DNA from: an uncultured Spirochaetota bacterium
Lineage (GTDB): Bacteria > Spirochaetota > UBA4802 > UBA5550
Length of the DNA: 64,000 nt
NCBI GenBank assembly: GCA_963827275.1
Contig: CAWHAA010000006.1
Span: 249,144-313,143 of the forward strand
Direction of reading: 5' to 3'
Part shown: piece after piece, positions 57,001-60,000 of the stretch
How the letters are laid out: every line of letters starts with the position of its first letter
Numbering within the stretch: the first letter of the stretch is position 1
Made by a program: the position numbers

Positions 57001-60000
57001 TCCGGCCCGCTCCCTCTTTTTTTTCTGGATCTTCAATGACATCCGCGGTGCGTTTTGATTCGGGCATAGTGAAGTCCATTAATATGACAGCTCCAGCATG
57101 CGGTCAAGGGCCTTCCGGGCGGCCTCACGTACTTCCGGCGCTACCGTTACGACCGTTTTCTCTTCCTGGAGCCCGCGCAGCAGCACCGGGAGCGTTATCT
57201 TTTTCATGTTGGGGCATATAAATGAGCCGGCTGCAGGTATATATTCTATGTGGGGCGCGACGCTCTTCAGCTTGTGGATCATCCCTATTTCGGTCCCGAC
57301 GATAATCTTTTTCCTGTCAGTGGATTGCACGAATCTGACCATGTGACCGGTGGAGAGGACCTCGTCCGCCATGTCGATCACGTCCGGCCTGCACTCGGGA
57401 TGCACCATGACCAGGGCGTCCGGGTGCTGTTTTTTAACAGCGGCAAGGTCTTCCACCGTGAATTTTTCATGGGTAGGGCAAAACCCCTTCCAGGCGATGA
57501 TCTTCTTCTTGGTAAAGCGCTGCACATAGCTCCCGAGGTTTTTGTCCGGAAGGAAAAGGATGGTGTCAGCCTCGACCCGTTCAACGATTTTAAGCGCATT
57601 CGACGAGGTGCAGATGACGTCGGACTGCGCCTTGACCGCCGCGGTCGAATTGATATAGGTAACGACCATGGCGCCCGGATGCTCTCTCCTGAGCCTGATT
57701 ACGTCTTCGGCATCAACCATGTCGGCCATGGGGCAGCCTGCCGTCGGGTCCGGGATGATCACTTTTTTTTGCGGAGAGAGAATGGCGGCCGACTCGGCCA
57801 TGAAATGAACACCGCAGAACACGATCATGGACGCGTCGTTTTTCGCCGCGATCTGCGAAAGTTCAAGCGAATCGCCGCTGAAATCCGCCACGTCCTGCAC
57901 CTCGCCCACCTGGTAGTTGTGGGCAAGTATGATGGCATTTTTTTCCTTTGCCAGCTTTTTAATCTGTTCGGATATATTCATCTCGCGGCCATTTTATAAT
58001 TTTATAAAAGTAACATTTTACGGCAATGGTCATTTTTTTTGATCGACAGTTATCAGTTTGTTTATAGTATTGTCGAGACATAATAAATTATCAACATAAA
58101 AATAGGCTGGAAAAACAAATTTTTCTAAAAAATAATTGACACCATTTATATGGGCAATCAAGTTACCTGAGAAATATATTCCCCTGTAGCTCAGTCGGTA
58201 GAGTCCCGACAAGGTCGGGATTAACCACTGGACGAAGGTGAATGATGATGTGAATATTCCCCTGTAGCTCAGTCGGTAGAGTCCCGACAAGGTCGGGATT
58301 AACCACTGGACGAAGGTGAATGATGATGTGAATATTCCCCTGTAGCTCAGTCGGTAGAGTCCCGACAAGGTCGGGATTAACCACTGGAATCGAAGGTGAA
58401 TGATGATGTTGAGCATATTCCCCTGTAGCTCAGTCGGTAGAGTCCCGACAAGGTCGGGATTAACCACTGGACGAAGGTGAATGATGATGTGAATATTCCC
58501 CTGTAGCTCAGTCGGTAGAGTCCCGACAAGGTCGGGATTAACCACTGGACGAAGGTGAATGATGATGTGAATATTCCCCTGTAGCTCAGTCGGTAGAGTC
58601 CCGACAAGGTCGGGATTAACCACTGGATCGAAGGTGAATGATGATGTGAATATTCCCCTGTAGCTCAGTCGGTAGAGTCCCGACAAGGTCGGGATTAACC
58701 ACTGGATCGAAGGTGAATGATGATGTGAATATTCCCCTGTAGCTCAGTCGGTAGAGCAAGTGGCTGTTAACCACTGGGTCGTAGGTTCGAGTCCTACCGG
58801 GGGAGCATCCCTAAAGCAACGATCAATGATTGTTGCTTTTTTTATTCCAATGAAACAATATTACACCTACATCCTGCAATCTGAATCAACAGGCAAATAC
58901 TACATTGGCCACAGCCATGACCTGGAACAACGCATATTGCAGCACAATACCCATTCTTTCTCAGGCTCAGTTTCAACGAAAAGACTTATGGGCCCATGGA
59001 AACTGGTTTTTCAGGAATCTTATGATACGCGTTCAGAAGCGATGGACCGTGAAAAACAGATCAAGTCATGGAAAAGTAAACAAGCAATTCAAAGGCTGAT
59101 AGACAGTCGGTAGAGTCCCGACGCAGTCGGGATTAACCACTGGGTCGCAGGTTCGAGTCCTACCGGGGGAGCATGGGCGCTTTTCGAACTCCGGAAAGCG
59201 CCTTTTTTATTTACCGACCATTATTGTAGCGATTATTGACAAAATGGTTGGTTCGAATACTGTCTTCCCGCTACATTACGATAAGACTCGAACTTCATAA
59301 TTTTTTCGGCAAGTATACCCTATTAGCACAAGGCGGCAATCCATCCCCCATTTCACAAATCAAGTAACATTGAAATAGTAATTGACAGTCACATACATTA
59401 TGCATATATTATATGTATGCATAATTTTTCAAAGCATAGTCTGAATAGACTCGATGAGCGCAAATTTTCCAAGGAATCGATAGAATCAATCCTCAACAAA
59501 GAAGTTGATGTTGTTATTTACCCGAGCACGAGGGATGAAGACATTGACCTCTATTTCGGGAAATACGTAGGCATGTATATACTCGTTGTTTATAACCGTC
59601 AAACTTCAACTATCGTGACTGTCAGAAATATGAGGAAGAAGGAAAAAGAAATTTTCAATGAGGTGATGAGATATGAAAAAGAATAAACAGATTGATGCTT
59701 CATATTACGATAAAACTGATTTGTCCGGCATCATGATGCAAGCCGACAGAAAAAAGAAAGTATACAAAGCCAAAACAAAACGGATCACCATGAACATCAC
59801 ACACGAAGCCTACGAAGACGCCCATGATCTTGATCGGTTTATGGGAATGGGCTATCAGAACGTATTAAAAACTGCAATGGTTATGGGTTTGAAAGATCTT
59901 CATACTATCGTTCTGAGAGAAAAGAAGAAGAAACGGCAGACTGAAAATTGACAATCACTATTCCACCATCCAGATTATGAAATCCAGCAGGATATCATCG

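What a model noticed while it worked through the whole genome (the two positions that open the first line are those of the whole stretch)
58180..59187. Tandem array of hairpin-substituted tRNA-Asn copies beside a GIY-YIG gene
Seven head-to-tail 78-nt units, each made of the first 24 nt of tRNA-Asn(GUU) followed by a 6-7-bp hairpin that replaces the anticodon-stem 5' strand and anticodon, stand directly upstream of the intact tRNA-Asn; an uncalled 87-aa GIY-YIG nuclease gene follows the tRNA and its stop codon lies in the D-loop of a further hairpin-substituted tRNA-Asn 3' part. I read this as a tRNA-Asn-targeting GIY-YIG homing cassette, spread through the order UBA4802, whose nuclease drives segmental amplification of cleavage-immune tRNA-like copies that are made as a structured RNA. 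New would be a chromosomal tRNA-gene homing element in bacteria and a new tRNA-derived RNA family.
Evidence so far: TRF: C6:307319-307899 period 78, 7.4 copies, 97%; units printed in register; intact tRNA-Asn C6:307876-307949 (rna.tsv; Rfam 70.7 bits, no other Rfam family, call 28). ORF C6:307993-308256 (87 aa, Pfam GIY-YIG 3.1e-18, call 56; single copy, calls 33-34) ends ...DSR* inside AGTCGGTAGAG, followed by hairpin + TTAACCACTGG + T-arm + acceptor 3' strand. Same layout (units - tRNA-Asn - ORF 54-70% identical - hairpin remnant) in relatives G008, G002, G006, G016. On 8 units from 8 genomes the 6-bp hairpin is paired in 100% of cells, 2 of its 6 pairs change on both sides (AU/GC; CG/UA/AU), covariation score 0.321 against 0.179+-0.029 in 500 shuffles (0 reach it) and <=0.179 when slid by 1-3 columns. 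[...]
(Added by a program. Inside this text positions count along the whole contig: contig position 249,144 is position 1 of the stretch shown here. "Call 12" and the like, gene names such as g00115 and contig names such as C1 are that model's own, and its searches are not shown. The text may have been shortened before it was handed on; [...] marks where a part breaks off. The agent that wrote the report below was given it as the finding of a first reader that could run no searches.)

Follow-up and report, generated by a model that had tools for sequence, protein, structure and literature searches.

The report
Selfish nuclease cassette lodged at tRNA-Asn
A tiny nuclease gene sits directly behind the only asparagine tRNA gene, surrounded by dead, hairpin-carrying copies of that tRNA (seven of them in a row); the same package occurs at many tRNA genes in many bacterial phyla and looks like a selfish DNA element that has not been described in print.

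Summary
In detail: seven 78-83-nt units, the intact single-copy tRNA-Asn, an 87-aa GIY-YIG ORF, and a hairpin-bearing tRNA 3' remnant.

The interpretation needs widening and partly reversing. The locus belongs to a cross-phylum family. In 63 of 79 related loci the small GIY-YIG gene abuts a same-strand tRNA gene of 13 amino-acid types. 58 of 79 carry the same TCCCG...CGGGA hairpin, usually in place of a tRNA arm. This scan noted the same kind of element at least 8 times on other genomes. Five literature searches found no description.

The closest published system is Ssn: single-domain GIY-YIG nucleases that bind a hairpin repeat with the same TCCCG/CGGGA core as single-stranded DNA and cut just upstream. 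By that analogy the hairpin copies are more likely the nuclease's binding sites than cleavage-immune copies. The covariation does not show an RNA.

Sister species have empty sites (5), decayed ORF-less units (4) or intact units with the ORF (1), a selfish-element life cycle. No tyrosine recombinase lies at the locus. Nuclease-driven amplification is plausible but untested. The array's 239-nt higher-order repeat is what ordinary unequal recombination would produce.

The parts
58136..58141 (+). TTGACA box of the tRNA-Asn promoter region; AATAATTGACAC is conserved upstream of tRNA-Asn in the sister genomes
   Evidence: Read. The simple sigma-70 scan did not list it with a good -10 box, so promoter function is inferred from conservation only.
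58180..58732 (+). Seven tandem pseudo-tRNA-Asn units. Each is tRNA nt 1-24, a 17-nt hairpin, tRNA nt 35-45 and about 26 nt of filler. Unit variants run A A B A A C C, which gives a 239-nt higher-order period.
   Evidence: One unit folds to -26.9 kcal/mol against -18.1+-3.0 for shuffles, z -2.96.
58204..58220 (+). First copy of the hairpin TCCCGAC-AAG-GTCGGGA. Further copies start at 58282, 58360, 58443, 58521, 58599 and 58678.
   Evidence: 8 matches against 0 in shuffles; the hairpin is confined to this locus in the genome.
58733..58806 (+). Intact tRNA-Asn(GTT), the only Asn tRNA gene of the assembly
58813..58839 (+). Terminator-like hairpin A. It differs from the terminator type that follows tRNA-Asn in element-free sister genomes.
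58850..59113 (+). 87-aa single-domain GIY-YIG nuclease gene. Its last codons and TAG stop are supplied by tRNA D-arm sequence.
   Evidence: (Y7, Y18, G20, R28, E68 invariant in 6 homologues).
59104..59173 (+). Pseudo-tRNA-Asn remnant: D-loop part CAGTCGGTAGAG, hairpin TCCCGAC-GCA-GTCGGGA (59116-59132), then tRNA nt 35-76 with one T-stem mismatch
59175..59203 (+). Terminator-like hairpin B, of the type that follows tRNA-Asn in element-free sister genomes, so probably the native tRNA terminator. It is repeated at every cassette junction downstream.
59204..63100 (.). Context: a low-GC array of toxin-antitoxin cassettes (BrnT-like, MqsR/MqsA, MazE/MazF, HigB plus HTH). Junction repeats hold a degenerate tRNA-Asn 3' end plus terminator B. 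The array continues on contig C10:1-3600.

Best explanation
The locus is one copy of a widespread selfish cassette that lives in or beside tRNA genes. Its only gene is a single-domain, roughly 80-95-aa GIY-YIG nuclease placed directly 5' of a tRNA copy, so that the tRNA's 5' part supplies the last codons and the stop. One or more flanking tRNA copies are dead because an arm has been replaced by the element's own hairpin (TCCCG-stem-loop-CGGGA).

I infer, by analogy with the Ssn nucleases, that this hairpin is the nuclease's cognate site, bound when the DNA is single-stranded, with cutting close by.

The native tRNA 3' end and terminator were displaced to the far side of the ORF. The working tRNA now carries an element-derived 3' flank.

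The seven upstream units are hairpin-bearing dead 5' copies of the tRNA. They expanded recently by unequal recombination between units; a three-unit block was itself duplicated. Nicks made by the nuclease at its hairpins may speed this up, but that step is inferred.

Conserved tRNA sequence on both sides gives the cassette homology for spread into the same tRNA gene of distant hosts and for occasional switches to other tRNA species.

Shown here: the anatomy, the family-wide tRNA and hairpin association, the presence/absence/decay pattern, and the cross-phylum Asn clade. Inferred: ssDNA hairpin binding, any cleavage, the route of transfer, and the nuclease's role in amplification.
For: Anatomy.

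Family association. The 79 best relatives come from an unbiased protein-pattern scan of one genome per species. Of these, 67 hold a tRNA within 1.5 kb and 63 have a same-strand tRNA abutting the ORF (45 upstream, 25 downstream). 42 have the hairpin within -30 to +150 nt of the stop, 30 have hairpins upstream (14 with two or more), and 21 duplicate the upstream tRNA's last 17 nt behind the ORF. Five of the 79 loci are the same records as order genomes. Without them the counts are 60 of 74 (tRNA abutting) and 55 of 74 (hairpin).

Hairpin. There are 123 matches in 58 of 79 loci against 3 for the reversed control. It stands in the anticodon-arm position between consensus D-stem and variable-loop sequence. 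It also replaces T-loops (L071, L075, G066, G047) and a D-arm (L104). Stem pair 6 is paired in 86 of 93 distinct hairpins against 48.5+-3.6 in shuffles (maximum 59). Pair 7 is paired in 55 of 62 against 40.9+-2.1.

Link to Ssn. SsnA is a 94-aa single-domain GIY-YIG whose gene is flanked by hairpin repeats. It binds them only as ssDNA, needs the stem sequence but not the loop, and cuts a few nt upstream. The printed NTS is CGTCATTCCCGCGMAVGCGGGAATCYRG, with the same TCCCG/CGGGA core and a 3-4-nt loop.

Life cycle in the genus. 13 loci were fetched and 11 show the tRNA. Five are empty sites, four hold decayed single units without the ORF, one holds an unclear insert, and one (G099) has two or more intact units with the ORF on another contig.

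Order level. The 8 genomes with a homologue at 54% identity or more comprise 7 with the motif plus G060, which has a one-wobble variant. Seven motif genomes lack the ORF.

Specificity and transfer. The window's protein lies in a 95% SH-aLRT clade of 5 Spirochaetota and 2 Thermodesulfobacteriota loci. All of those with a tRNA in view sit at tRNA-Asn and share the same unit-tRNA-ORF-remnant layout. The tRNA label changes 24 times on the tree against 42.6+-1.8 in 200 shuffles.

No tyrosine recombinase lies at the locus or at the far end of the array.

Native against element flank: terminator B, which follows the remnant, matches the terminator type behind tRNA-Asn in empty-site genomes.
Against: There is no biochemical or expression data for this protein.

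Membership of cd10448 could not be tested. The hairpins fail the Ssn paper's own SRM search pattern: 0 hits in the window and 1 of 79 related loci.

The hairpin has 9 copies at one locus, not hundreds genome-wide as in Neisseria.

The best solved relatives by sequence are UPF0213 proteins and SLX1, not a characterised Ssn.

A nuclease that cuts only next to its own hairpin does not by itself explain invasion of naive tRNA genes.

How the 5' units first arise is unexplained. They carry the tRNA start and leader, which the ORF-proximal remnant lacks.

Tandem repeats can expand without any nuclease.

Intact perfect hairpins also occur in genomes where no ORF was found (G027, G040, G049).

Many relatives are fragmented bins that break at this locus.

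The tRNA-label and hairpin statistics involve related sequences and overstate independence.
Confidence: 0.55

Rival explanations
1. The enzyme is a classical free-standing homing endonuclease that cuts duplex tRNA-Asn DNA in the anticodon arm of ORF-free genomes. The hairpin-substituted copies are cleavage-immune, and breaks drive their segmental amplification.
For: The GIY-YIG domain has conserved catalytic residues. There is presence/absence polymorphism at one locus. The replaced segment is the same in units and remnant. SegB of T-even phages is a GIY-YIG homing enzyme in a tRNA cluster (PMC2330249, listing and start of abstract). SegB also drives tandem amplification of a tRNA segment, with microhomology between the tRNA 5' end and the segB 3' end (PMC13096335: abstract, section 10 and passages).
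Against: The protein is 87 aa with no DNA-binding domain, whereas SegB-type enzymes carry one. The intact tRNA-Asn next to the ORF is identical to that of ORF-free sister genomes, so the host copy would not be immune. The same hairpin sequence recurs at unrelated tRNA species and in T-loops and D-arms, which chance 'immune' variants would not do.
Confidence: 0.15
2. The repeats are scars or att sites of a site-specific recombinase. That recombinase inserts cassettes (the GIY-YIG ORF and the toxin-antitoxin modules) at tRNA-Asn, and the nuclease is mere cargo.
For: The tRNA 3' part plus native terminator is duplicated at the far side of the ORF, as at integrase attR sites. The ORF is the first of an array whose junctions carry degenerate tRNA-Asn 3' ends. 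In G047 a 25-kb stretch with a weak tyrosine-recombinase hit (64.5 bits) separates the tRNA from the ORF.
Against: In G000 no PF00589 hit lies near the locus or near the array's continuation; the nearest is 30 kb upstream. Integrase sites do not duplicate the tRNA 5' part upstream. The architecture travels with the GIY-YIG gene across phyla at loci without arrays. Serine recombinases and transposases were not searched.
Confidence: 0.08
3. The units are functional as RNA. They would be a tRNA-derived structured leader or decoy, co-transcribed with tRNA-Asn, that affects tRNA maturation or titrates an RNA-binding factor or toxin.
For: The units lie between the conserved promoter box and the tRNA, so they should be transcribed. 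They have a stable fold, z -2.96. The hairpin shows compensatory changes. Several RNase toxins are encoded just downstream.
Against: There is no RNA evidence: the only RNA-labelled contigs cover the tRNA 3' part to the ORF start and are probably DNA. Identical hairpins stand downstream of ORFs and inside T-loops or D-arms, where no leader exists. Units decay in ORF-free sister genomes. There is no G-U over A-C bias. No Rfam family matches.
Confidence: 0.1
4. The array is neutral. A single dead tRNA copy left by the cassette expanded by ordinary replication slippage or unequal crossing-over, with no contribution from the nuclease.
For: The 239-nt higher-order period (A A B / A A C) is what unequal exchange between units gives. 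The unit-to-flank depth ratios of the collapsed contigs differ between three samples (2.5, 1.8, 6.6, a weak measure). Copy number varies among relatives: 1, 1, 2 or more, 5, 7.
Against: Arrays of two or more units were seen in ORF-bearing genomes (G000, G099, G066, G060, G047) and in 14 of 79 related loci. ORF-free genomes of the genus keep only single decayed units. This is a correlation that recency alone could also explain.
Confidence: 0.12

Closest known systems
Ssn family of site-specific ssDNA nucleases with NTS/SRM hairpin repeats (Chenal et al., Nat Commun 2025, PMC11893778; I read the outline, sections 8, 10 and 12, and passages)
   Same: The protein is a single-domain GIY-YIG of about 90 aa, with the Tyr, Tyr and Glu equivalents conserved. 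The gene is flanked on both sides by a hairpin repeat. The hairpin core TCCCG...CGGGA with a 3-4-nt loop matches the printed NTS. The stem base is conserved in sequence while the loop is free. The authors themselves note that the NTS-ssnA-NTS layout looks like an insertion sequence.
   Different: The hairpins here are embedded in dead tRNA copies and replace tRNA arms; the word 'tRNA' occurs 0 times in that paper. There are 9 copies at one locus, not hundreds genome-wide. The paper's SRM search pattern does not match. cd10448 membership and ssDNA activity are untested. The host is a Spirochaetota MAG.
SegB, the free-standing GIY-YIG homing endonuclease in the tRNA gene cluster of T-even phages (PMC2330249: listing and abstract start only; PMC13096335: abstract, section 10, passages)
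   Same: It is a GIY-YIG nuclease gene next to tRNA genes. It shows tandem amplification of a tRNA-containing segment, and homology between the tRNA 5' end and the 3' end of the nuclease gene.
   Different: SegB is a multi-domain phage enzyme that cuts duplex DNA, and the amplified unit holds a full, working tRNA and segB. Here the host is a bacterial chromosome, the protein is 87 aa, and the amplified units are dead 5' tRNA copies carrying a specific hairpin. Only 2 relatives were found in 2.9 million viral contigs.
UPF0213 / YhbQ-type small GIY-YIG proteins and SLX1 (PDB 1zg2, 1ywl, 7wme)
   Same: These are the best sequence matches among solved structures: 1.3e-8, 1.4e-6 and 6.7e-5 with a 6-sequence profile. 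They share the same single GIY-YIG fold and size.
   Different: The search output gives no tRNA or hairpin context for them. The matches are to the shared catalytic domain only.
Genomic islands integrated at tRNA genes by tyrosine integrases
   Same: The tRNA 3' part is duplicated at the distal junction, and the working tRNA is restored with an element-borne 3' flank.
   Different: There is no integrase at the locus. There are extra 5' copies upstream, and arm-for-hairpin substitutions.
IS200/IS605-type elements and REP/RAYT systems (comparison drawn in PMC11893778's discussion)
   Same: A small nuclease gene is associated with subterminal or extragenic hairpins that are recognised as ssDNA.
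   Different: The enzyme class differs (HUH Y1 transposase against GIY-YIG hydrolase). No tRNA mimicry is known for them; that last point is from recall.

Membership tests
Ssn (cd10448) ssDNA nucleases with SRM hairpins | Single-domain GIY-YIG protein of about 90-100 aa | tested here: met
   87 aa; Pfam GIY-YIG covers residues 3-77 and nothing else matches.
Ssn (cd10448) ssDNA nucleases with SRM hairpins | Catalytic Tyr, Tyr and Glu (Y6, Y17, E64 in SsnA) conserved | tested here: met
   Y7, Y18 and E68 are invariant in 6 homologues. Equivalence is judged by motif position, not by an alignment with SsnA.
Ssn (cd10448) ssDNA nucleases with SRM hairpins | Assignment to CDD cd10448, or E<1e-10 to N. 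meningitidis SsnA | not testable with these tools
NCBIfam gives no family above cut-off.
Ssn (cd10448) ssDNA nucleases with SRM hairpins | Gene flanked 5' and 3' by the SRM motif as the paper defines it (degenerate search pattern) | tested here: not met
   The pattern has 0 matches in the window and 22 in the genome. 1 of 79 related loci matches.
Ssn (cd10448) ssDNA nucleases with SRM hairpins | Gene flanked on both sides by a 20-50-nt inverted repeat with an NTS-like core | tested here: met
   Hairpins lie at 58678-58694 (nearest upstream) and 59116-59132 (downstream). The core TCCCG/CGGGA is as in the printed NTS.
Ssn (cd10448) ssDNA nucleases with SRM hairpins | Binds and cuts only ssDNA, a few nt upstream of the hairpin | not testable with these tools
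   This needs biochemistry.
Free-standing GIY-YIG homing endonucleases (SegB type) | Catalytic domain plus a separate DNA-binding domain | tested here: not met
   Only the 75-residue catalytic domain is present in 87 aa.
Free-standing GIY-YIG homing endonucleases (SegB type) | Gene present or absent at the same locus among close relatives | tested here: met
   Of 11 genus loci showing the tRNA, 5 are empty, 4 hold relics, 1 holds an unclear insert and 1 is occupied.
Free-standing GIY-YIG homing endonucleases (SegB type) | The host allele is immune through sequence differences at the target | tested here: not met
   The intact tRNA-Asn is identical in G000 and in the empty-site genomes G092, G101 and G093. 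This applies only if the target is the tRNA itself.
Integrase-borne island at a tRNA gene | Tyrosine recombinase gene in or beside the element | tested here: not met
   PF00589 hits in G000 lie at C6:277 kb, C5 (two) and C10:354 kb. None is at C6:307-313 kb or C10:1-10 kb. Serine recombinases were not searched.
Functional tRNA / tRNA-like RNA family | Scores as tRNA or another curated RNA family | tested here: not met
   Only 58733-58805 matches RF00005. The units and the remnant match nothing meaningful at E<=10, and ARAGORN calls none of them.

The most novel reading that the evidence does not exclude
The cassette is a new class of recombinase-free mobile element. An Ssn-like nuclease nicks single-stranded DNA at the element's own hairpin, which is planted in dead tRNA copies. 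The universally conserved D-arm and T-arm sequences serve as portable homology arms. Nick-induced recombination then does three things: it copies the cassette into the same tRNA gene of distant hosts, it lets the cassette hop between tRNA species, and it amplifies the pseudo-tRNA units. The same process seeds the integrase-free toxin-antitoxin cassette array behind tRNA-Asn, whose junctions are degenerate copies of the hairpin-bearing tRNA 3' remnant.
Probability: 0.2. Interest if true: 0.85.

Novelty: new variant of a known kind. Interest (0 to 1): 0.65.

Why it matters
Small single-domain GIY-YIG proteins are among the commonest 'hypothetical nucleases' in bacterial genomes, and only the Neisseria-type Ssn enzymes have a known activity.

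If the tRNA-lodged branch is a selfish element, several things follow:
- It would explain many stray partial tRNA copies and odd tRNA predictions in genome annotations.
- It would show a way for DNA to move between phyla using tRNA sequence as homology.
- It would provide a natural set of hairpin/nuclease pairs for single-stranded-DNA tools.
- It would give a chromosomal counterpart to the nuclease-driven tRNA amplification just found in T-even phages.

This locus is a good test case. It has the longest unit array I saw (7). The tRNA is single-copy and presumably essential, so it constrains what the element may do. Sister species show empty, relic and occupied states.

Tried and rejected
(1) RNA evidence and copy number from public runs. 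20 runs hold part of the stretch, and all are kept as assembled contigs. Laying X1, X4, X5 and X17 gave no contig across the array, no real joint and no RNA support. The one 'skip' in X5 is a tRNA-Lys of another organism. X17 is probably DNA. The depth ratios are only a weak hint of copy-number differences.

(2) The Ssn paper's SRM pattern does not match.

(3) NCBIfam has no family above cut-off.

(4) Phage carriage. Only 2 relatives were found in viral contigs, and there were 0 viral matches to the Asn-type hairpin pattern.

(5) Integrase as the maker of the repeats: none is near the locus.

(6) My first loci pattern had one N too many and found nothing. It was replaced by scripts.

(7) I looked for element-specific bases flanking the hairpin. 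The flanks are simply consensus tRNA D-stem and variable-loop sequence, so no orientation signal could be separated from the tRNA.

(8) Strand test by wobble pairs: 10 G-T-type against 8 A-C-type cells, too few to decide.

(9) Literature. Searches (GIY-YIG combined with tRNA gene/homing, tRNA/duplicat/Bacteroidetes, tRNA genes/mobile, pseudo-tRNA, adjacent to tRNA) found no description of tRNA-lodged small GIY-YIG cassettes. The library lacks most subscription journals. I did not open the supplements of PMC11893778 (lists of Ssn homologues and their flanks), and these could include such loci.

(10) The near-place look-up of earlier scan notes returned nothing.
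Full report
OBSERVATION

Tandem Repeats Finder reports one array at 58176-58756 with period 78, 7.4 copies and 97% matches. 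It also reports a 239-nt period with 2.5 copies at 98%.

Seven units start at 58180, 58258, 58336, 58419, 58497, 58575 and 58654. Each unit has four parts:
- the first 24 nt of tRNA-Asn;
- the 17-nt hairpin TCCCGAC-AAG-GTCGGGA;
- TTAACCACTGG, which is tRNA nt 35-45;
- about 26 nt of filler.

The units come in three variants in the order A A B A A C C, which accounts for the 239-nt period.

The features around the array are as follows.
- ARAGORN finds tRNA-Asn(GTT) at 58733-58806. It is the only Asn tRNA among 45 tRNAs of the 92%-complete assembly.
- A terminator-like hairpin follows at 58813-58839.
- The ORF 58850-59113 encodes 87 aa with a GIY-YIG domain, 3.1e-18. Its stop lies in D-loop sequence.
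- The ORF is followed by TCCCGAC-GCA-GTCGGGA and tRNA nt 35-76 at 59116-59173.
- A second terminator-like hairpin lies at 59175-59203.

In the whole genome the hairpin occurs only at this locus, and the nuclease gene is single copy.

RELATIVES IN THE ORDER

44 of 122 order genomes have some GIY-YIG hit. Only 8 have a homologue at 54-74% identity: G000, G066, G110, G064, G047, G060, G099 and G074.

Four of the seven close loci fetched show tRNA-Asn directly upstream. None of the 22 loci of the 27-45%-identical paralogues has any tRNA within 1.5 kb.

The close loci repeat the layout of units, tRNA-Asn, terminator, ORF and remnant, with 1 to 5 units.

The motif GAGTCCCG-N4-12-CGGGATTA is present in 14 of 122 genomes and never in the reversed control.
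- Seven of the eight ORF genomes have it. G060 has a variant with one wobble pair.
- Seven genomes have the motif without a detectable close ORF. Some of these break at contig ends. G027 has a unit plus tRNA and no ORF. G049 has a tRNA plus remnant with only about 105 nt between them.

THE GENUS SHOWS A LIFE CYCLE

I fetched the nadA-tRNA-Asn region of 13 sister genomes; 11 show the tRNA.
- Five are empty sites (G092, G101, G093, G098, G102). They run from the conserved AATAATTGACAC box through about 45 nt to the tRNA, followed by a terminator of the type that in G000 follows the remnant.
- Four carry one decayed unit and no ORF. G097 and G104 have mismatched hairpins and a filler homologous to that of G000. 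G096 and G100 keep only fragments.
- G094 has an unclear 70-nt insert.
- G099 has two or more perfect units, and its ORF lies on another contig.

The intact tRNA is letter-identical in G000 and in the empty-site genomes.

Two conclusions follow. The native 3' end and terminator of the tRNA now lie behind the ORF, and the working tRNA has an element-derived 3' flank. Invasion, decay and loss all occur within one genus.

A protein-pattern scan of one genome per prokaryote species, using an alignment of six close homologues, returned 334 relatives. The best 79 loci were kept. Five of them are the order genomes again.

Association with tRNA genes:
- 67 of 79 hold a tRNA within 1.5 kb.
- 63 have a same-strand tRNA abutting the ORF, 45 just upstream and 25 starting at or just after the stop.
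- The tRNAs are Val, Pro, Asn, Glu, Ala, Ile, Met, Asp, Phe, Ser, Gln, Leu and Lys.
- The hosts include Bacteroidota, several Patescibacteria lineages, Ignavibacteriota, Chloroflexota, Verrucomicrobiota, Thermodesulfobacteriota and others.

The hairpin across the family:
- The same hairpin, YCCCG-N3-14-CGGGR, gives 123 matches in 58 of 79 loci against 3 for the reversed control.
- In 42 loci it lies within -30 to +150 nt of the stop. In 30 loci it lies upstream, and in 14 of those there are two or more copies.
- Petrimonas (tRNA-Pro) and Pelobium (tRNA-Val) have four tandem hairpin-bearing 5' units upstream of the intact tRNA, just as here.
- The flanks of the hairpin are consensus D-stem and variable-loop sequence. 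It normally stands exactly where the anticodon arm was and has about the same length.
- It also replaces T-loops (L071, L075, G066, G047) and a D-arm (L104).

The hairpin therefore belongs to the element, not to tRNA-Asn.

HAIRPIN CONSTRAINT

Over 93 distinct hairpins the five outer pairs are fixed by the search.
- The sixth pair is a standard pair in 86 of 93 (AT 54, CG 11, GC 9, TA 7, wobble 5), against 48.5+-3.6 when the 3' letters are shuffled (maximum 59).
- The seventh pair is a standard pair in 55 of 62, against 40.9+-2.1.

It does not show an RNA, because the same pattern is expected for a hairpin read as single-stranded DNA. The non-Watson-Crick cells are 10 G-T-type against 8 A-C-type, so there is no RNA-like bias. 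Relatedness inflates all of these figures.

CLOSEST PUBLISHED SYSTEM

I read the outline, sections 8, 10 and 12, and passages.

What the paper says about SsnA:
- It is a 94-aa single-domain GIY-YIG protein (cd10448).
- It binds the hairpin repeat NTS only as ssDNA, not as dsDNA and not as RNA.
- It needs the stem sequence but not the loop, and it cuts a few nt upstream.
- Homologues are flanked by such hairpins on both sides.
- The authors remark that NTS-ssnA-NTS looks like an insertion sequence.
- The printed NTS is CGTCATTCCCGCGMAVGCGGGAATCYRG. It has the same TCCCG/CGGGA core and a short loop, as here.
- The word tRNA does not occur in the paper.

Limits of the comparison:
- The paper's degenerate SRM pattern does not match my hairpins: 0 in the window and 1 of 79 loci.
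- I could not test cd10448 membership.
- The best solved relatives by sequence are UPF0213 proteins (1zg2, 1.3e-8) and SLX1.

I therefore say the element 'works like Ssn' by inference. I do not say it 'is an Ssn'.

On that analogy the hairpin-bearing copies are the nuclease's binding sites. That is the opposite of 'cleavage-immune'.

SPECIFICITY AND TRANSFER

In a quick maximum-likelihood tree of 80 proteins with 84 columns, many forks are unresolved.
- The window's protein falls in a 95% SH-aLRT clade of five Spirochaetota and two Thermodesulfobacteriota loci.
- The two Thermodesulfobacteriota loci (60-62% identity) have the same unit-tRNA-Asn-ORF-remnant layout with the same hairpin.
- The tRNA label changes 24 times on the tree, against 42.6+-1.8 in 200 shuffles (minimum 37). 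Lineages are therefore tied to a tRNA species but switch now and then. Host phylum is confounded with this.
- Only two relatives turned up in 2.9 million viral contigs.

RIVALS

Classical duplex homing. SegB is a real precedent for tRNA-linked GIY-YIG genes and for nuclease-driven tandem amplification (PMC2330249, listing only; PMC13096335, abstract, section 10 and passages). Two points speak against it here:
- The protein lacks any DNA-binding domain.
- The host's own tRNA would remain a target.

Integrase scars. These would explain the 3' duplicate. They do not explain the 5' units or the arm substitutions. No tyrosine recombinase lies near the locus or near the array's continuation on C10. 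In G047, an island with a weak recombinase hit has been inserted between the tRNA and the ORF.

Functional RNA. This cannot be excluded, but it has no positive evidence.

Neutral slippage. This may fully explain the expansion to seven copies. The higher-order repeat shows that unequal exchange happened, and the nuclease's contribution is untested.

WHAT REMAINS UNEXPLAINED

- How the first 5' unit forms. It carries the leader and tRNA start that the remnant lacks.
- How a nuclease that recognises its own hairpin gets the cassette into naive tRNA genes.
- Whether the toxin-antitoxin array behind the remnant was built by the same process. Its junctions carry degenerate tRNA-Asn 3' ends, a short ATCC-AGCA-GGAT hairpin at the matching place, and terminator B.

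VERDICT

This is a real and well-conserved feature, and a member of a cross-phylum family. This scan has met the family at least eight times on other genomes. I could not find it in print. It is best seen as a tRNA-lodged variant of the Ssn-type hairpin/nuclease pairing, with features of free-standing homing genes.

Noticed in passing
window 59204-63100 and G000 contig C10:1-3600 (L145): A low-GC (38-44%) array of toxin-antitoxin cassettes follows the remnant: BrnT-like, MqsR/MqsA, MazE/MazF and HigB plus HTH in the window, and a second MazEF and HepT/MNT on C10. The cassettes are separated by roughly 140-230-nt junction repeats that hold a degenerate tRNA-Asn 3' end plus terminator B. No tyrosine recombinase lies at either end.
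   Followed up: partly
window 63140-64000 (end of contig C6): The last roughly 860 nt jump to 66-74% GC, against 55% for the genome and about 40% for the array, and the contig ends there. This is either a foreign cassette or a chimeric join. The array's repeats resume at the start of contig C10.
   Followed up: partly
L097 269-348 and 710-789; L137 141-220 and 580-659 (Pedobacter records): ARAGORN-nt 'tRNA-Ile(TAT)' genes on both sides of the GIY-YIG ORF. Their 'anticodon arm' is the element's hairpin (TCCCGAC-NTTATCA-GTCGGGA). In L092 a hairpin copy is called 'tRNA-???'. Such pseudo-tRNAs may be annotated as rare tRNAs in genomes.
   Followed up: partly
L007 (G066:C115) 300-897; L075 1501-2130; L118, L139, L115: Whole cassettes (ORF plus pseudo-tRNA) also occur as tandem copies with periods of about 345-390 nt. 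The second copy is often truncated or frameshifted.
   Followed up: no
G047:C22:1619-27247 (L010, L039): About 25 kb, including a weak tyrosine-recombinase hit at 5144-5617, separate the units and tRNA-Asn from the GIY-YIG ORF. The ORF is itself flanked by degenerate tRNA 3' ends whose T-loop is replaced by a TTCCC...GGGA insert.
   Followed up: partly
window 27951-28436 (G000:C6:277094-277579, minus strand): This is the nearest tyrosine recombinase to the locus (PF00589, 176.8 bits), 30 kb upstream. I did not examine it further.
   Followed up: no
L038 (G040:C173): A lone perfect hairpin unit stands behind a TTGACA box, with no intact tRNA-Asn within 700 nt downstream.
   Followed up: no
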